Assembly: GCA_043778225.1 (NCBI GenBank)
Contig: JAYWGM010000104.1
Span: forward strand, 1 to 12,179
Length of the DNA: 12,179 nt
Source: Deinococcales bacterium
GTDB taxonomy: Bacteria > Deinococcota > Deinococci > Deinococcales > JAAFIG01
Reading direction: 5' to 3'
Of this stretch, positions 1 through 9,000 are shown one piece after another (the stretch's first letter is position 1; every line of letters starts with the position of its first letter). A program made the position numbers.

Positions 1-3000
1 TCGTTGCAGGCGTTTGACGAGAGACTTTGAGGGTTTACCGAGTACAACCGAATCTTGGGCTTATTTGGCGAATATTCAGTTGATTTTGAGACGTTTTGAC
101 ACTTTATAAACACGCTCTAAAAGTACGCTCGTGTGACGCTGTATGAATAACCTAAACCCAGAGGTGATTATGACCAAGGAAATTTTGACCGAAACTCGAG
201 CCAAATACGAGCCGCCGATTCTCGAGAAATTTGTTTTTATGGAAATTACAGGCATTAGTTTACCAGTCGGCACAAACATTCTCGAGGAGGAAAGCAAATG
301 AAGCATCTTCTCGTTTTACTTGGCATGACAGCTTTACTTGCCTGTCAGCAAAATCAGTTTTTGCCTGTGCCAACTCGAGTGCTGGGGGTTACTGCCTTGC
401 CATTTGGAGATTCTATTCGTTCCCAAGCAGCTATTGCCGATGCTCAGATTGCTTTTGTGCCGCTTGGACTGGCGAGTGTACTCGATGATGCTGCCTTTAA
501 CTCGCGGTTTATTCGCCGTAGTTTTAGGATTACCAACAATTCAGGTGGTATTCTCACCAACCTGATTTTCCATGCCTACAATGCCCCAGCCAACAGCCAA
601 GGCACAGCCTTAAAGGGCATCACGAATTTTGCTGGGCAACCTGTGCTTAATGCCCAAGAAGCCATTCCTAAGCACGGCATGACGGGCAATGCTTCGTTGA
701 TTGTTGACTCGAGTGCTGCCGATTTACAATTGTTTAGCGAAGCTACGGTTAATGCTGCTCAGACCGAGGCGACCAGTATTTTAGGCGCAAACGATTACTT
801 ATTGGCTTATGGTTTTTTGGTGCAGCAACGCAATGGCGATACCGATTTGGACAGTAACCCACGCACCATAGCGGCTGGTGAGACTGGCACAATTACGATT
901 TCGTATCAGTTGCCCAAAGACTCGAGCAATGCCTATTCGTTCGTGGCGACTTTTAGCCTTCGTACCACCAGCGATGTGGATTTGGTGCAAACCCAAGAAG
1001 AGCAATTGGCTGGTACAACCGCCGGACAACTCGGACTGATTAACTTTAATAAAGTGACTGTACCCGGTGGTCAGGCTTGCGGTATCGTCGGGTCTGGGAT
1101 AACGTTGCGGTTCTTAAATCAATTGCGAATTGCGGGTAAAGTTGGAGGGACTGGCTCAGATACAGCCACCTATGCTTTTAATACGCCAAGTGTTGATGCC
1201 ATTGTGCCAATTAGTTTTTCAACCGAGGCAGTCTTCCGCGAGACCGTTTTGAACGCACCAGACGGAACAGGCATTTGTTTTACACAAAGTTTTGATCTAA
1301 GATTCGCGCCAGTAATAACCTTGGCGAAGAACATCACCATTTATGGCGGCAATAAAACGCTTATTTCTGGCGGTCTTGTGAATCGAATTTTTGAGATTGC
1401 CAGTGGTTTTAAGGTTGCCTTGTACGGCTTTACCATCGCCAACGGTACAAGCAGTACCTCAGCCACAAATTTTGGCGGTGGAGCAATCAGCAACGCTGGT
1501 CACTTAACGCTGGGTGGAATGAAATTCAGTAACAACCGCTTTGCAGGACTTGACTTTGCCACAAGCCCCTTCACACCAGCCAAAGGCGGCGCAATTTATA
1601 ACACTGGGGTACTTAACATTGAGTACAGCGAATTAAAATCGAATACTGCCCAAGCAGGCAGAGGTGCGTTTGGCACGAATGCAATTCTAGGTAGTGGAGT
1701 ATCAGGAACCAATGGAGAACTTGGCGGGGCTGCCTCTGGTGGAGCGATTTTTAATGCAGGTACACTGCAAATAAACTCGAGCCAAGTCTCGGGTAATTCG
1801 GCTATCGGAGGTCGCGGTGGAATTGGTGGTCTCGGGACAACTGTTATTGATCCTAGTGACGGACCACCATTCTTTGGATTTTTGTGCAATGAGCCTTCAG
1901 GCGTTGGTGGGCTTGGTGGTAACGCCATTGGCGGTGGAATCTTCTCGAGTGCCGCCTTTACCAACAATGCCAATGTAACAACCAACACGGTAACAGCCGG
2001 AATTGGTGGTTTTGCTGGTGGACCAAATCCTTGTGCATCACCTGACACCAGTAAGGCGGCTTCTGGGACTGCCAGCAATCCCAATGTTGCACCTTAATTT
2101 TTATGAGGCTACCCGCTCGAGCTTACGGCACTTGGCGCAGCGCGTAACGGCTCGTAACGGCGGCTGCGTAAACTTTAGGCACTCGAGAATCAGTCTCGAG
2201 TGCCTTGAAGTACGCTCGTGTGACGCTGCACTAATAACCTAAACCCAGAGGTAAGTATGACAAAAGAAAAATCTGAAACTCGAGCCAAATACGAGCCGCC
2301 AATTCTCGAGCAGCAAGCAGCTTATGTGGTTTTGACGGGCATCAGTTTACCAATTGGTACAAACATTCTCGAGGAGGAAAGCGAATGAAAAAGTTTTTAC
2401 CAATTCCATTACTATTGTTTGCCTTGCTTGCCTGTCAGCAAACACAAGTCCAACCCATGACGCAAAACCTTGGCACACTCGAGTTGCGGCTTGATAATTC
2501 TGGAAGCACTAAAGGACAAGTGGCTCGAGTGAAAGTTTCGGGGCTACAAACCCAAGGGACGCTGCGTGAAGCCGATGTGACCTTTACAGCTTTGACGACC
2601 GTTGCCACACAAAACGATGGGGCGTTTGATTATGTACAAGCGCAGTTTAGCGTCTTAAACTCGAGCAGTACACCATTTGCTAATTTAACCTTGTACGCCG
2701 TTGCAAAGTCTGGCAACATTGCTGGTACAGCCATTAAAAGCATTACTAATTTTGGCGGACTTACCGATGTCAACGAGCAAACCCGAATTGCCAAGTTGGT
2801 CACGGCTACGCATGGCTTAAACATCTCGAGTACGGGTGCGAGTTTAATTTCTGGGCGTGAGGATATGCAGCTTTTTACGCCAAACGATGTGAATGCTTTA
2901 CAAGCTGACCCTGCTTTGACTTCAAACGGTTTCTCGAGCAACGATAAAGTGCTTGGCTATGGTTTTGTGGCGCGGCGTTGTGTTCCAAATTGCAGCAGTC

Positions 3001-6000: not shown

Positions 6001-9000
6001 CAGAGCATTAAACCAGCCCACGGAACGAATGGCTCGTTAGCGGTTGACCCTTTTCGGGCTGACATGGGTATTTTGTTACCACTCGAGGCAAATAATTTAA
6101 CAGTAGCGGCGCGTAATGCTGGTGTGATTGGCGCATCCGACACCGCCCTCGAGTACGGTTTTATTGCCCGTAGAAGTGCCACTTCGCACCTAAGAAGCAT
6201 TGCCAGTGGCAGCACAGGGCAAGTCACCTTGGCGGTACAGCTTCCTACAGCGCAAGATAATGCGCCAACCACTGCGCCGTATCGTTTTGCCTTGACTTTT
6301 ATTGTCACCACCGACGACACCGATATTGTTACCCAGTCACTCGAGGAGCAAAATAACGATGCCTTGGTTTCGGCTCGAATCGCTGCGATTGGTAAGAGTA
6401 CCACGGTGCGACTTTTGCGCGGCAGTTCTTTTACAGGACGACCACAACAACGCTTGTGTGGGACGCGCTTGGCAACTGGTAACGCGGCGTTCCTGACCGC
6501 CCCGAGTTTGGGTTTTCTGGGTGCGAGACTTAATCCAGACAGTACGTTAACGGCTGATTTCGATGCGCCGTTGGACTCGAGCAGTTTAGGAAATGGTTTG
6601 GTGATCCAGGGTTTACGAAGCGGTAAGCGCCTTGCGGGTCTGAGCTTGGTTGGTAACAGTGTCCAGTTTACACCAACCAGCCCCACCCAAGAATTCAGTC
6701 ATGGCGAGGAGGTGCTGCTGAGTGTTACCAATCAACTTCGCAGTGTCGAAGGTGGTCAGTTATGCGGACAACCAGCCCAAAGTAAATTGTTTCGCATGGA
6801 CTCGAGCCGCAAAGATCAGGTGCTGAGTTACCGCCGCCCAATCAAAATAGCCATGAATGCAGGTACGCTTGGTGGGCAACGAATCAGTGCTTTAGCTGAC
6901 CTGAACAACGACGGTAAAGCCGATTTGGTCACAATAAGTATGCTCGAGAGTAAAGTTTTTACACGCCTTGGTACGGGTTTGGATAATACTTATTTTGGAG
7001 CGCTGACCACAACCAACTTAATTGAGCGACCCAAAGATTTGGATATTGCCGATATGAACAGCGATAGTCTGTTGGATTTGGTGATTCACAATCTTGGCAG
7101 CCCAAGTTCGTTCAGTATTTTGCTTGGAAATGGGCTTGGGGGTTTCTCGAGCCTGACGACCTTTCCTTTGACTGGAACAGGTAATGAGGACGTTTTAGCG
7201 CTAGGTGATGTGACAGGCGATGGTAAACCCGATCTGGTCACACTTGAAAATACATCAATTCGCTTAGAACTTGTGGTTGTTACGCGGGCAAATAGCACCA
7301 TAGCTGGGGCTTTTATACCCACTTTTGGGGCAATTGGTAGACAAATCATTACGATAAATTCAACTACCAATACGTCCCCACCTTCACCACACCGGCTGGT
7401 CATTGATGACCTCGATTTGAACGGGGTTGCAGATACGATCATTGCAATACAAAAAACTTTTGAGGGAAATAATGATTTTACGCTGTTATACAAGTCAATG
7501 AATGGTGGTGCATTCCAATCGCTTGATGCTTTACAAAGTCAAAGCTGTACAATTGCTACAGCAAATTTAGATAACGACCCGCAAAAAGAAATTGGCTTCG
7601 CTTGCAATGGGCAAAACTCCGCCATTCGCTTTCCAAACAATAGTCTTACTTTGCTGCAAAAATCAAATTTGCTCATACTTGAAAACAGTGTATTTGCTGA
7701 CCTAAACGGCGATGGTAAAAAAGAATGGATTACGGTTGGTATCAACAATACCAGTACCTTGGCACAAAGTTCACTCGAGGTGCGTTACTCAGCCGAAGGG
7801 GGGTTATTTGGATTCAGCACCATGATTCCAGGTTTTCTTACCCCACAAGGAGATAATGGCAACCAAAATTTATTTGGGGTTGCTGCGGCTGACCTGAACG
7901 GCGATGGAAAATTAGAAATCGTGGCTGGTGACGATGACGCGGGCGCTCAGGTCTGGCGGCACGAAAAAATTGGTTCGTTCAGAAAAATTTCGGTCAGTGC
8001 ATTAAACCCTCGAGACATCATGGCGGCTGATTTAACCAACGATGGAAAAACCGATATTGCCGTGGCAAACGTACAAACCTCTGGTATTTACTTGCACCGA
8101 GGTACAGACAATGGTTTTGCAACCCAAGAATCCATTGCTGTTCAATCCAGTCAAGTGACCCTGGCTTCGGGTGATGCCAACAATGATGGTCGGGTAGATG
8201 CTTTTGTGGCTGCCGGTTTTGGCTTGGGAATTCAACTCTCGAGCAGGACAGGTGGTTTTACTGCGGGTACAGGTACAGCCGAATCTTTTACTATTCAAGG
8301 CTTAGCTGTCACAGACTTTAACAATGACGGTAATTTAGATGCAATTGTCAGTGGTTTTGGAACTGCGCCGCTTCGTATCCTGCTCGGTGATGGAACAGGT
8401 GCATTTACCACTGGAACAACCCAAGCCAGCACCGATGTCAGTCAATTGATGGTCGCCGACATCAACGCCGATGGCAATATGGACGTACTGGCATTACAAA
8501 GTACCCAAATCGCGGTGTTCTTAGGTTCAGGAGATGGTAATTTAACCCCTGCCACACCAATAACAACCACGGCTCGAGCCTTTGCTCTAACCGACATCAA
8601 CGCCGATAACACCCCTGATATTATTTACGCCACTGGTACAAACCTCGAGTACCGCTTAAATAGCGCACGTGTTTTCGGCAGTCCTCAAGTCATCAATAGC
8701 CCATTTCAACCTGTTACATCCAACAGCCTAGCCATTGGTGATTTTAACGGTGATGGTTTCAATGACTTGCTTGCTACCAATGGCAATAATGTCATGCTTT
8801 ATGGTGGGCTTTCGACAGGTGGTTTTGCCGTGTTTGCAACAGCTTCTGAGGCTGGTTTAAGCCCAAGCAAATTACAAGCTGCCGATATTAACCAAGATGG
8901 CTTACTAGATGCGTTTGTCACTAACATAACTGAAAATTCGATTACCTTGCTGCTCCGTTTCTAAGTGGGTTCGTAACGCTTCGTAACGGCAGGAGCTTAT

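What a model noticed while it worked through the whole genome (the two positions that open the first line are those of the whole stretch)
143..8964. Fourteen lasso-leader-like peptides, each coupled to a surface lipoprotein with a lineage-specific N-domain
Fourteen 40-56-residue ORFs share the exact spacing of the lasso-peptide leader recognition motif (Y-x2-P-x-L-E-x4-aromatic-x3-T-G) and a semi-conserved (I/A/F)S(L/F)P(I/F)GT core, and nearly every one ends 4 nt inside, or just before, a large lipoprotein gene whose first 280 or so residues form a domain found almost nowhere else and whose C-terminal part varies (FG-GAP, RCC1, beta-helix, DUF5122, P-domain, nuclease); seven loci sit beside a BTAD/NB-ARC/TPR STAND regulator. 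I read them as a new peptide-plus-lipoprotein module in which a RiPP-style leader is read in trans by the genome's PqqD-type recognition proteins (one lasso gene set at C92:39625-46219), giving either many products from o [...]
Evidence so far: Peptides: C104:143-301, C104:2257-2388, C17:1743-1904, C28:5047-5208, C3:7120-7290, C33:23921-24085, C50:11399-11539, C72:33064-33222, C75:41624-41764, C89:58100-58255, C92:4354-4491, C60:13188-13310, C49:10385-10510, C49:10513-10656; Y, P, L, E invariant and T, G in 90% or more of 12 aligned; profile hits E 1.6e-20 to 4e-6. Downstream genes g04035, g04037, g00491, g00858, g00101, g01166, g01812, g02638, g02753, g03266, g03372 (g02199 and g01783 nearby) start with a lipobox and align to each other over residues 1-250/300 at 25-39% identity whatever their C-terminal Pfam domains. 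The N-domain of g03266 finds only 21 protein clusters (E 1e-5) among 5.8 billion (word-seeded search, call 105). P [...]
(Added by a program. Inside this text positions count along the whole contig: contig position 1 is position 1 of the stretch shown here. "Call 12" and the like, gene names such as g00115 and contig names such as C1 are that model's own, and its searches are not shown. The text may have been shortened before it was handed on; [...] marks where a part breaks off. The agent that wrote the report below was given it as the finding of a first reader that could run no searches.)

Follow-up and report, generated by a model that had tools for sequence, protein, structure and literature searches.

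The report
Cyclase-less lasso-like peptides coupled to lipoproteins
Small genes that look like lasso-peptide precursors sit in front of surface lipoprotein genes throughout Deinococcus-type bacteria, and they go with a peptide-binding protein, a kinase and a leader-cutting enzyme rather than with the ring-closing enzyme, which points to an undescribed peptide-processing pathway tied to cell-surface proteins.

Summary
The peptides are real. The genome (a Deinococcota MAG) has 15 of them, two in the window (143/170-301 and 2257-2388). Each window peptide overlaps by 4 nt a lipoprotein gene that carries a shared ~260-residue N-terminal beta-sandwich.

- That set has its own precursor.
- 8 of 15 peptide-positive relatives show no lasso cyclase.

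The better candidate is a second, orphan system:
- a lasso-B1-type PqqD plus an HPr-kinase-like protein on C64;
- a nucleotidyltransferase fused to the lasso B2 protease on C44.

In Deinococcus-like genomes, 19 of 23 PqqD-kinase loci lie back to back with a peptide + N-domain lipoprotein pair. Those peptides carry the textbook YxxPxLx3Gx5Tx leader. D. radiodurans R1 plasmid MP1 has the same set around its ExeM/NucH nuclease.

Across 364 genomes of the phylum, 71 of 77 peptide-positive genomes hold the kinase.

The cores lack the Asp/Glu needed for a lasso ring. The likely product is a linear, leader-cleaved peptide, perhaps phosphorylated. Its role for the lipoprotein is unknown.

The N-domain is not rare (816 clusters), and the "invariant" Glu is a lineage-specific CTCGAG effect.

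The parts
120..141 (+). 22-nt upstream motif (AAGTACGCTCGTGTGACGCTG type; ACGCT direct repeat 11 bp apart). Candidate operator/promoter element, copy 1.
   Evidence: Genome-wide, copies with <=3 mismatches occur only at window 120-141, 2207-2228 and 11930-11951. A regulatory role is inferred, not tested.
143..301 (+). Peptide a (52 aa from ATG 143; more likely 43 aa from ATG 170). Lasso-type leader YEPPILE...T-G followed by ISLPVGT and an acidic tail.
   Evidence: The start at 170 is inferred from the homologous upstream region of peptide b and from an AGAGGT Shine-Dalgarno sequence. A 43-aa database cluster, P0186, exists.
298..2097 (+). Lipoprotein a (599 aa). Lipobox LLAC, N-domain of about residues 20-280, Gly/Asn-rich beta-helix-like C-terminal part. 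Its ATG overlaps the peptide stop codon (ATGA).
   Evidence: N-domain E 2.8e-81. Pfam gives only a weak DUF5067 hit, E 0.0011.
2207..2228 (+). Upstream motif, copy 2 (1 mismatch).
2257..2388 (+). Peptide b (43 aa) with exact lasso spacing: Y-17, P-14, L-12, T-2. Putative core ISLPIGTNILEEESE.
2385..5486 (+). Lipoprotein b (1033 aa). Lipobox LLAC, N-domain, RCC1-repeat propeller(s).
   Evidence: (RCC1/WD40_RLD, E 1.3e-159). AF2 model of residues 18-290: pLDDT 88, pTM 0.88.
5587..8964 (+). Lipoprotein c (1125 aa). Lipobox LVGC, N-domain, FG-GAP repeats. No peptide ORF upstream.
   Evidence: N-domain E 3.7e-97. The intergenic stretch 5487-5586 was read and holds no peptide ORF.
8997..11912 (-). 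STAND regulator (BTAD + NB-ARC/P-loop + TPR). Convergent with the three lipoprotein genes and divergent from the fragment at 11964.
11930..11951 (+). Upstream motif, copy 3 (3 mismatches).
11964..12122 (+). Truncated 5' fragment of an N-domain lipoprotein gene, a paralogue of the start of gene 5587-8964. It ends at a stop codon after 52 codons.
   Evidence: (N-domain positions 1-38, E 8.2e-5).

Best explanation
The small ORFs are genuine peptides derived from lasso-peptide precursors. They are substrates, or at least ligands, of a lasso-derived processing system that has no cyclase.

The system has three parts:
- a B1-type PqqD recognition protein;
- an HPr-kinase-like P-loop protein encoded right after it (G000: C64:7670-7921 and 7918-8811);
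- a nucleotidyltransferase (NTP_transf_5) fused to the lasso B2 cysteine protease (G000: C44, L027:5470-6783).

In this genome the system acts in trans on 15 dispersed peptides. Each peptide is transcribed and translated together with a Sec/lipobox surface lipoprotein that begins with a CBM-like beta-sandwich N-domain.

Proposed steps (all inferred):
1. PqqD binds the leader through Y-17, P-14, L-12 and T-2.
2. The kinase, and possibly the nucleotidyltransferase, modify a Ser/Thr of the conserved x-S-(L/V)-P-(I/F)-(G/N) core.
3. The B2 domain cuts after T-x.
4. No macrolactam ring is made.

The result would be a short linear modified peptide made in step with its lipoprotein.

What is shown: the anatomy, the conserved gene neighbourhood, the co-occurrence and the family assignments of the proteins.

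What is not shown: binding, the chemistry, and what the product does for the lipoprotein. My leading guess for the last point is a ligand or signal connected with the N-domain or with envelope display.
For: Leader motif, across 35 peptides from both bacterial families:
- Y in 35/35 and P(+3) in 35/35.
- L/V/I(+5) in 35/35 and G(+9) in 23/35.
- An aromatic residue at +11 in 32/35 and T(+15) in 31/35.
- This is the lasso leader YxxPxLx3Gx5Tx. The motif name is recalled from memory. The role of the penultimate Thr is stated in the abstract of PMC10368454 (listing).

Gene neighbourhood:
- Among the 30 best kinase loci, 19 of the 23 Deinococcus-like loci have a peptide plus an N-domain lipoprotein within 1.5 kb, divergent from PqqD-kinase. 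None of the 7 loci from the window's own family does.
- The NTP_transf_5-B2 fusion is adjacent in 18 of those 23.
- D. radiodurans R1 plasmid MP1 shows the same set. The annotated 'lasso peptide biosynthesis B2 protein' DR_RS15790 is divergent from an unannotated peptide plus the ExeM/NucH endonuclease DR_RS15795. A second unannotated peptide precedes the Ig-like protein DR_RS15800. An S8 peptidase follows, then the hypothetical protein (kinase) DR_RS15810 and the PqqD family protein DR_RS15815.

Co-occurrence over 364 genomes of the phylum (my tally from the tables, counting the kinase at E<=1e-25):
- both present in 71;
- peptide only in 6;
- kinase only in 9;
- neither in 278.
- Within the Deinococcus-like family the four numbers are 54 / 1 / 7 / 63.

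Natural loss cases in the window's family:
- G009, G010 and G012 have no peptide, PqqD, B2 or kinase.
- G007 is 94% complete. It keeps 15 N-domain genes but has 1 peptide and no PqqD, kinase or B2. All 5 N-domain genes examined there lack an upstream peptide.

Family assignments of the proteins:
- The best solved relatives of the PqqD profile are the lasso B1 proteins TbiB1 (E 2e-13) and TfuB1 (3e-10). PqqD proper scores only 0.087.
- The kinase matches the HprK-like protein of the C92 lasso cluster at BLASTP 4e-10.
- The kinase profile's best PDB hits are HPr kinases, at E 1e-4.
- A Walker A motif, His and Glu-Asp are invariant in 6 of 6 aligned sequences.
- The B2 domain keeps the Cys and His that align with the stand-alone lasso B2 and hits NF033537 at 2e-12.

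Predicted complex of PqqD (C64) with peptide b: weak support.
- Score 0.50; best of 3 controls 0.01.
- The mark was reached by 116 of 157 solved complexes and by 2 of 215 mismatched pairs.
- At 0.60 or under it was reached by only 18 of those 157, and by both mismatches that passed.
- The runs agree in at least 87% of contacts, and the partner's pLDDT is at least 53.
- Lasso B1-leader complexes have been solved, so the pass may be from memory.

Literature (passages of PMC8498205):
- HPr-kinase homologues phosphorylate lasso precursor peptides.
- A nucleotidyltransferase adds hexose to the phosphate.
- The nucleotidyltransferase is sometimes fused to B2.
Against: - No chemistry, binding or expression has been measured.
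- In G000 the system is not next to any of the 15 peptides, so action in trans is inferred.
- 6 peptide-positive genomes lack a detected kinase and 9 kinase-positive genomes lack a detected peptide. Several of these genomes are incomplete.
- The characterised HprK-type kinases act on a C-terminal Ser (PMC8498205). These peptides do not end in Ser.
- No exporter was seen near the loci. The peptides have no signal sequence, while the lipoproteins are exported, so a direct peptide-lipoprotein contact faces a compartment problem.
- Pairwise identity of peptides and of their N-domains does not co-vary once one recent duplicate is removed (r 0.10, Mantel p 0.18).
- Related genomes are not independent, so the co-occurrence table overstates the evidence.
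- The complex prediction is only 'weak support'.
Confidence: 0.6

Rival explanations
1. First reader's version. The 14-15 peptides are extra substrates of the genome's complete lasso gene set on C92 (B2, B1, cyclase, methyltransferase, kinase). They become lasso peptides, or lasso-like products, made in trans.
For: - The leader spacing matches lasso leaders.
- The C92 set is complete: B2, PqqD and a cyclase hitting NF033535 at 1.3e-119.
- 3 of the 11 cores examined have D/E at position 9.
Against: - The set has its own precursor between the cyclase and the methyltransferase (L012:8290-8508). The peptide HMM does not detect it at E<=10.
- The cyclase is found in only 7 of 18 relatives of the window's family. 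8 of 15 peptide-positive relatives lack it. Examples are G013 (one contig, 7 peptides), G006 (94% complete, 9 peptides) and G014 (13 peptides).
- The complete Deinococcus-like genomes G028 and G036 have modules but no cyclase hit.
- Most cores lack Asp/Glu at positions 7-9.
Confidence: 0.06
2. The small ORFs are mainly upstream coupling or regulatory ORFs. Their translation sets the translation of the lipoprotein gene through the ATGA overlap and the Shine-Dalgarno sequence inside the peptide tail. The PqqD system binds the nascent or free peptide only to tune expression, and no modified product matters.
For: - 10 of 14 ORFs overlap the lipoprotein start by 4-8 nt, and the last 15 nt of the peptide ORFs carry GGAG/GAGG-type Shine-Dalgarno sequences.
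- The overlap is also seen in Deinococcus-like loci.
- N-domain lipoproteins can exist without peptides: about half of those in G000, and G007.
- There is no co-evolution of peptide and N-domain.
Against: - Coupling alone does not explain a 30-residue motif conserved at protein level between genomes whose DNA is very different.
- It also does not explain co-occurrence with a protease, a kinase and a nucleotidyltransferase whose catalytic residues are kept.
Confidence: 0.15
3. The peptide is a direct partner of the lipoprotein's N-domain. It could be a cytoplasmic pilot or chaperone before export. Or, after processing and export by an unknown route, it could be a ligand of the CBM-like sandwich that helps anchor the protein in the envelope.
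For: - Strict gene pairing is conserved across genera: 10 of 11 peptide loci in relatives have an N-domain gene directly downstream, and 19 of 23 core loci do.
- The N-domain is a confident beta-sandwich with weak likeness to carbohydrate-binding modules and to Gram-positive lipoprotein sandwiches.
- The kinase + nucleotidyltransferase chemistry known from pseudomycoidin gives phospho-glycosyl peptides (PMC8498205).
Against: - The peptide has no signal peptide and no exporter gene was seen.
- The lipoprotein goes through Sec unfolded: it has a lipobox and no twin-arginine motif.
- There is no co-evolution signal.
- The N-domain folds confidently on its own.
- This pair was not tested by complex prediction.
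Confidence: 0.12
4. The peptides are ligands of the neighbouring STAND (BTAD-NB-ARC-TPR) regulators and form a feedback loop on their own operons.
For: - 7 of 12 loci in G000 have such a regulator, mostly divergent from the peptide gene.
- TPR sensors commonly bind peptides (general knowledge).
- A locus-specific repeat motif lies upstream of both window peptides.
Against: - 5 of 12 loci lack a STAND neighbour.
- The Deinococcus-like core loci examined and the D. radiodurans locus show no STAND gene next to the module.
- The conserved partner across the phylum is PqqD-kinase, not a STAND protein.
Confidence: 0.05

Closest known systems
Class II lasso peptide gene clusters with split B protein (A, B1 = PqqD-type RRE, B2 = transglutaminase-like protease, C = Asn-synthetase-like cyclase)
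   Same: - The leader has the Y-17/P-14/L-12/T-2 spacing.
- The PqqD is closest to the solved lasso B1 proteins TbiB1 and TfuB1.
- The B2 domain hits NF033537 and keeps Cys/His.
- NCBI already names the D. radiodurans homologue 'lasso peptide biosynthesis B2 protein'.
   Different: - No cyclase in the locus, and none found in many genomes that carry the system.
- The cores lack the Asp/Glu ring acceptor at positions 7-9.
- No ABC exporter was seen.
- The precursor gene is translationally coupled to a large lipoprotein gene.
- There are up to 15 dispersed precursors per genome.
Phosphorylated / phosphoglycosylated lasso peptide clusters of Firmicutes (paeninodin, pseudomycoidin): HPr-kinase homologue K, nucleotidyltransferase N, sometimes fused to B2
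   Same: - The same accessory set is present: an HprK-like kinase and an NTP_transf_5 domain fused to B2.
- The fusion and the activities are described in passages of PMC8498205.
   Different: - Those clusters keep the cyclase and the transporter, and their kinase acts on a C-terminal Ser.
- Here the peptides do not end in Ser, there is no cyclase or transporter, and the conserved neighbour is an N-domain lipoprotein.
Translationally coupled upstream ORFs / leader peptides of bacterial operons
   Same: ATGA-type overlaps, and a Shine-Dalgarno sequence for the downstream gene inside the upstream ORF.
   Different: The peptide sequence is conserved at protein level across a phylum. It also co-occurs with a dedicated recognition protein, a protease and a kinase.
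ExeM/NucH-type extracellular endonuclease of D. radiodurans (DRB0067 in the literature; the equation with DR_RS15795 is my inference from product name and replicon)
   Same: - It is a lipobox protein whose N-terminal region matches the N-domain profile at E 1.7e-12.
- G000's C33 lipoprotein likewise combines the N-domain with an Exo_endo_phos domain.
- The paper reports that the nuclease is secreted by the Sec pathway and bound to the hexagonal surface layer (passages of PMC3554781).
   Different: The upstream peptide and the flanking PqqD, kinase and B2 genes are not mentioned in the passages I read. The upstream peptides are not annotated in the gene table shown. That table is incomplete by design.

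Membership tests
Lasso peptide precursor (class II) | Leader with YxxPxLx3Gx5Tx spacing (Y-17, P-14, L-12, T-2) | tested here: met
   Across 35 peptides: Y 35/35, P 35/35, L/V/I 35/35, T(+15) 31/35 and G(+9) 23/35. The motif definition is recalled from memory.
Lasso peptide precursor (class II) | Core with Asp/Glu at position 7, 8 or 9 to close the macrolactam ring | tested here: not met
   Only 3 of the 11 G000 cores examined have D/E at positions 7-9. None of the Deinococcus-type cores listed does.
Lasso peptide precursor (class II) | An Asn-synthetase-like lasso cyclase available in the genome | tested here: not met
   NF033535 at E<=1e-20 is not found in 8 of 15 peptide-positive relatives of the window's family. 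It is also not found in the complete genomes G028 and G036, which carry modules. G000 itself has one, with its own precursor.
RRE-dependent RiPP precursor (general) | A PqqD-like recognition protein genetically linked to the precursor | tested here: met
   19 of 23 Deinococcus-like PqqD-kinase loci are adjacent to a peptide + lipoprotein pair. 71 of 77 peptide-positive genomes have the kinase that is encoded next to PqqD. In G000 the link is in trans only.
RRE-dependent RiPP precursor (general) | Leader is bound by the recognition protein | tested here: inconclusive
   The complex prediction gave weak support: score 0.50 against a best control of 0.01. See the For line for the calibration counts. 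Similar complexes have been solved. No measurement exists.
RRE-dependent RiPP precursor (general) | Core is post-translationally modified and the leader is removed | not testable with these tools
   This needs mass spectrometry or in vitro reconstitution. Only the catalytic motifs of the kinase and the B2 domain were checked.
Phosphorylated lasso peptide clusters (paeninodin type) | HPr-kinase homologue and C-terminal Ser acceptor | tested here: inconclusive
   The kinase homologue is present. The peptides do not end in Ser. A conserved internal Ser exists, but its role is unknown.
Bacterial lipoprotein (Lgt/LspA substrate) | N-terminal signal peptide ending in a lipobox L-x-x-C | tested here: met
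   LLAC, LLAC and LVGC in the three window proteins. Cys is invariant in the 12-row alignment and nearly invariant in the 63-row alignment. No lipoprotein predictor was run.
Regulatory upstream ORF / translational coupling | Stop-start overlap with the downstream gene and a Shine-Dalgarno sequence inside the upstream ORF | tested here: met
   10 of 14 overlap by 4-8 nt, and the 15 nt before the downstream start carry GGAG/GAGG-type sequences. Whether this has a regulatory consequence was not tested.

The most novel reading that the evidence does not exclude
A lasso-derived RiPP machinery has lost its cyclase and been repurposed to serve the cell surface. It makes short linear peptides, possibly phospho- or phosphoglycosyl-modified. 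These peptides are the cognate ligands or maturation factors of a large family of surface lipoproteins with a CBM-like N-domain, including the extracellular nuclease of D. radiodurans. RiPP chemistry would then control the anchoring, display or release of envelope proteins rather than making an antibiotic.
Probability: 0.2. Interest if true: 0.9.

Novelty: new variant of a known kind. Interest (0 to 1): 0.75.

Why it matters
The parts themselves are known: a lasso-type leader, a B1 recognition protein, a B2 protease, an HprK-like kinase and a nucleotidyltransferase. The architecture was not found in print. There is no cyclase and no exporter. The precursor is hard-wired by translational coupling to a surface lipoprotein, and up to 15 dispersed precursors are served by one enzyme set.

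I found no description of it in four full-text searches or in the passages I read.

If correct, three things follow:
- It defines a new class of linear RiPP-like peptides across Deinococcota.
- It gives a role to the 'orphan' PqqD/B2 genes annotated in Deinococcus genomes.
- It links peptide processing to envelope proteins.

It is directly testable in the genetically tractable D. radiodurans R1. There the locus surrounds the known extracellular nuclease, and two peptide genes appear unannotated in the gene table I saw.

Tried and rejected
- The search for related loci in genome contigs with the kinase alignment. It returned 2 unrelated proteobacterial MAG loci (L053, L054), which I did not use.
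- Sequencing runs: no RNA holder is listed. The three rows that hold the stretch are DNA or of unknown kind, one holding only a twentieth of its words. No reads were laid.
- Supplements of the D. radiodurans small-ORF proteomics paper PMC9650054. Three strings from the MP1 peptide occur in none of the 6 files. This is no evidence of absence, because a processed or modified peptide would escape such a search.
- Fold of the N-domain: no clear relative.
  - Foldseek against the PDB found nothing at E<=0.001. The best row was the TasA fibre at 7.9e-3, TM 0.26.
  - The wide VIA-align search gave a best Z of 5.8 (WSSV VP37; rmsd 3.9 over 120 residues). CBM2/CBM3 modules and the Bacillus lipoproteins YcdA/YjhA scored Z 3.6-4.4.
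  - The ESM Atlas gave a best score of 0.88 to unnamed clusters, with CBM families at 0.77-0.82, which are leads only.
- Pfam and NCBIfam find nothing for the peptides.
- Co-evolution of peptide and N-domain: r 0.37 (Mantel p 0.023), driven by one recent duplicate. Without it, r 0.10 and p 0.18.
- Donor-strand or TasA-like complementation of the N-domain by the peptide: considered because of the TasA row, then dropped. The match is weak and the domain folds confidently alone.
- My first peptide profile (window's family only) found 0 of 22 genomes in sister families. That was a sensitivity failure, not absence. It was corrected with profile A6.
- One row of alignment A4 (L029:8067-8756) was a wrong frame. 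It was replaced in A5.

Full report
**What is in the window.** The window is contig C104 of a 4.03-Mb, 107-contig Deinococcota MAG.

- Two small ORFs, 143-301 and 2257-2388, encode 74%-identical peptides. Each has a polar N-terminus, the motif YEPPILE, an aromatic residue, T-G, the stretch ISLP(V/I)GT and an acidic tail.
- Each stop codon overlaps by 4 nt the ATG of a lipobox gene. These genes are 298-2097 (beta-helix-like C-terminal part) and 2385-5486 (RCC1 repeats).
- A third lipoprotein gene, 5587-8964 (FG-GAP repeats), has the same N-terminal domain but no peptide ORF upstream.
- A BTAD/NB-ARC/TPR STAND gene lies at 8997-11912 on the minus strand.
- A truncated copy of the start of the third lipoprotein gene lies at 11964-12122.
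- A 22-nt motif precedes both peptides and the truncated gene, and occurs nowhere else in the genome at <=3 mismatches. It contains the direct repeat ACGCT at an 11-bp spacing.
- The upstream regions of the two peptides are nearly identical. The comparison suggests that peptide a starts at ATG 170.

**Is the family real?** Yes.

- An HMM of the 14 listed ORFs finds exactly those 14 (E 6.9e-21 to 2.8e-9), with a gap to the next hit at E 0.0037.
- A strict regex gives 16 hits against 0 in the reversed genome. The 16 are the 14, a 15th module on C48, and one chance hit inside an enzyme gene.
- 10 of 14 overlap a lipoprotein start by 4-8 nt.
- The lipoproteins share a ~260-residue N-domain in 12 of the 13 compared.
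- 7 of 12 loci have a STAND neighbour.

- The N-domain is a large family: 816 clusters at 50% identity with E<=1e-3 and 339 with E<=1e-30. G000 has 22-24 copies, and about half of them have no peptide.
- The 'invariant' Glu is always encoded within CTCGAG (15 of 15). CTCGAG is the most frequent hexamer of this genome, with 24,877 copies. In the wider family that position is T, Q, K or R.

The acidic tails also double as the Shine-Dalgarno sequence of the lipoprotein gene.

**Testing the lasso-in-trans reading.** The C92 lasso set is complete: B2, PqqD, cyclase, a TylF-PqqD methyltransferase and an HprK-like kinase.

- It has its own precursor between the cyclase and the methyltransferase (L012:8290-8508). 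The peptide HMM does not see this precursor.
- Among 18 relatives of the same family, 15 have the peptides but only 7 have a lasso cyclase at E<=1e-20.
- The 8 peptide-positive genomes without a cyclase include G013 (one contig, 7 peptides), G006 (94% complete, 9 peptides) and G014 (13 peptides).
- Most cores lack Asp/Glu at positions 7-9.

The peptides therefore do not depend on the lasso cyclase.

**A better partner.** G000 has a second, stand-alone PqqD (C64:7670-7921).

- A 4-nt overlap joins it to a 297-residue P-loop protein.
- That protein is homologous to the HprK-like kinase of the lasso cluster (BLASTP 4e-10).
- A profile of the protein finds HPr kinases as its best solved relatives (E 1e-4).
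- On C44 there is a 437-residue fusion of NTP_transf_5 with a lasso B2 domain. The fusion keeps the Cys and His that align with the stand-alone B2.
- The PqqD profile is closest to the lasso B1 proteins TbiB1 (2e-13) and TfuB1 (3e-10), not to PqqD proper (0.087).

**The link to the peptides comes from the sister family.** That family is high-GC and Deinococcus-like.

- In G020, G036 and G028 the PqqD-kinase pair lies back to back with a small ORF and an N-domain lipoprotein.
- Those small ORFs carry the textbook lasso leader, Y-x-x-P-x-(L/V)-x3-G-x-W-x3-T-x. My first profile had missed them.
- They align with the window's peptides as one family.
- Of the 30 best kinase loci in the phylum, 23 are from this sister family. 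19 of the 23 have peptide plus N-domain within 1.5 kb. 18 of the 23 also have the NTase-B2 fusion.
- Two of the four exceptions are cut by contig ends.
- The 7 loci from the window's own family have PqqD-kinase but no module nearby. There the modules have multiplied and dispersed.

**D. radiodurans R1, plasmid MP1.** The locus reads in this order:

1. 'lasso peptide biosynthesis B2 protein' DR_RS15790;
2. divergent from it, an unannotated peptide plus the ExeM/NucH endonuclease DR_RS15795;
3. an unannotated peptide plus the Ig-like protein DR_RS15800;
4. an S8 peptidase;
5. convergent, the hypothetical protein (kinase) DR_RS15810 and the 'PqqD family protein' DR_RS15815.

DR_RS15795 and DR_RS15800 both have lipoboxes and match the N-domain profile.

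**Co-occurrence.** These numbers are my tally from the genome tables, counting the kinase at E<=1e-25.

| Set | Both | Peptide only | Kinase only | Neither |
|---|---|---|---|---|
| 364 genomes of the phylum | 71 | 6 | 9 | 278 |
| Deinococcus-like family (125 genomes) | 54 | 1 | 7 | 63 |

- The patchy but matched pattern within the Deinococcus-like family implies repeated joint gain or loss. Kinship means these are not independent counts.
- The set includes one unpublished genome (G327), which falls in the 'neither' cell.
- In the window's family, G009, G010 and G012 lack peptides, PqqD, B2 and kinase.
- G007 (94% complete) keeps 15 N-domain genes but has one peptide and none of the three enzymes. 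The 5 N-domain genes I inspected there have no upstream peptide.
- Peptides therefore track the enzyme set, and N-domain lipoproteins can exist without either.

**The N-domain.** The AF2 model (63-row alignment) is confident: pLDDT 88, pTM 0.88, almost all beta. No solved structure matches clearly.

- Foldseek's best row is the TasA fibre, at 7.9e-3.
- VIA-align's best Z is 5.8.
- Carbohydrate-binding modules and the Bacillus lipoproteins YcdA/YjhA score about Z 4.
- The Atlas gives only leads, to CBM families.

I read it as a CBM-like sandwich, possibly an envelope-anchoring domain. The D. radiodurans extracellular nuclease is reported to be Sec-dependent and bound to the hexagonal surface layer (passages of PMC3554781). 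The equation of DRB0067 with DR_RS15795 is my inference.

**Predicted binding.** PqqD (C64, 17-row alignment) with peptide b (19-row alignment) gave 'weak support'.

- The score was 0.50, and the best of 3 controls was 0.01.
- The mark was reached by 116 of 157 solved complexes and by 2 of 215 mismatched pairs.
- At 0.60 or under it was reached by only 18 of those 157, and by both mismatches that passed.
- The runs agree in at least 87% of contacts, and the partner's pLDDT is at least 53.
- Lasso B1-leader complexes have been solved, so the pass may reflect likeness only.

**Mechanism.** I commit to this reading at confidence about 0.6. The peptides are substrates of a cyclase-less, lasso-derived pathway.

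- Shown: the leader anatomy, the conserved neighbourhood, the co-occurrence, the family membership of the enzymes and their kept catalytic motifs.
- Inferred: PqqD binds the leader. The kinase, and perhaps the nucleotidyltransferase, modify the conserved Ser/Thr of the x-S-(L/V)-P-(I/F)-(G/N) core. B2 cuts after T-x. The product is linear.

The accessory chemistry is modelled on paeninodin and pseudomycoidin. There an HPr-kinase homologue phosphorylates the precursor, and a nucleotidyltransferase, sometimes fused to B2, adds hexose (passages of PMC8498205). Those kinases act on a C-terminal Ser, which these peptides lack.

The purpose of the coupling to the lipoprotein is open.

- There is no co-evolution of peptide and N-domain.
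- No exporter was seen.
- The compartment problem argues against a simple 1:1 complex.
- The strict pairing across genera argues that the two products belong together.

The STAND regulators look like a lineage-specific regulatory layer. The 22-nt repeat motif is a candidate operator for the window's STAND protein; this is an inference from the 11-bp direct-repeat spacing typical of SARP-type sites, which I recall rather than tested.

**Novelty.** Four full-text searches found no description of this arrangement: PqqD + HPr kinase + nucleotidyltransferase, lasso peptide + Deinococcus, DRB0067, and PF14907/NTP_transf_5. A fifth search (ExeM/NucH/lipoprotein) returned only unrelated papers.

What I read:
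- passages of PMC8498205, PMC3554781 and PMC9650054;
- a text search of the supplements of PMC9650054;
- search listings or abstracts only for the other papers.

The parts are known and the architecture is new. I therefore file it as a new variant of a known kind, not as a lasso peptide.

**Caveats.**
- No expression, binding or chemistry data exist.
- MAG incompleteness affects the absences.
- My tallies come from the tools' tables at the stated thresholds.
- Some Deinococcus-family hits of profile A6 could be true lasso precursors, although 19 of 23 kinase-adjacent hits are followed by an N-domain gene.

Noticed in passing
whole genome G000; window has 66 copies: CTCGAG is by far the most frequent hexamer: 24,877 copies in 4.03 Mb, or 6.2 per kb. 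The next independent hexamer has 5,347. It shows no flank preference and occurs in all codon phases. Several other 6-bp palindromes are almost absent (GGCGCC 3, GACGTC 1, CTTAAG 8, GTGCAC 9, TGCGCA 11, CTGCAG 13). This looks like a highly iterated palindrome combined with strong restriction-site avoidance.
   Followed up: partly
window 120-141, 2207-2228, 11930-11951: A 22-nt motif with an ACGCT direct repeat at 11-bp spacing lies upstream of both peptides and of the truncated lipoprotein gene. It is unique to this contig at <=3 mismatches. It is a candidate operator for the adjacent BTAD-type STAND regulator.
   Followed up: partly
window 11964-12122: Truncated paralogue of the 5' end of lipoprotein gene 5587-8964, including its upstream 'gtaatttATG' context. 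It ends in a stop codon after 52 codons, close to the contig end.
   Followed up: partly
G000 C92 (L012:2939-5629): The IMP dehydrogenase gene carries an intein (Hom_end_hint and Intein_splicing hits inside the IMPDH domain). It lies directly upstream of the lasso gene set.
   Followed up: no
It overlaps the start of an N-domain lipoprotein gene.
   Followed up: yes
L086 (NC_000958.1, D. radiodurans R1 plasmid MP1) 4606-4767 and within 8242-8631: Two lasso-leader-type small ORFs lie upstream of the ExeM/NucH endonuclease and of an Ig-like lipoprotein. They carry no CDS in the gene table shown, which is incomplete by design.
   Followed up: partly
G000 C75:41624-42480 and C60:13188-13310: Two atypical members. 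The C75 peptide is coupled to a 239-residue lipoprotein without the N-domain. The C60 ORF is a leader-only stub that lies downstream of, not before, an N-domain FG-GAP gene.
   Followed up: partly
G007 (same genus as G000): This genome has 15 N-domain lipoprotein genes but only one peptide, and no PqqD, kinase or B2. It is a natural loss of the peptide system with the lipoproteins retained. One N-domain gene there has 2 internal TAA stops.
   Followed up: partly
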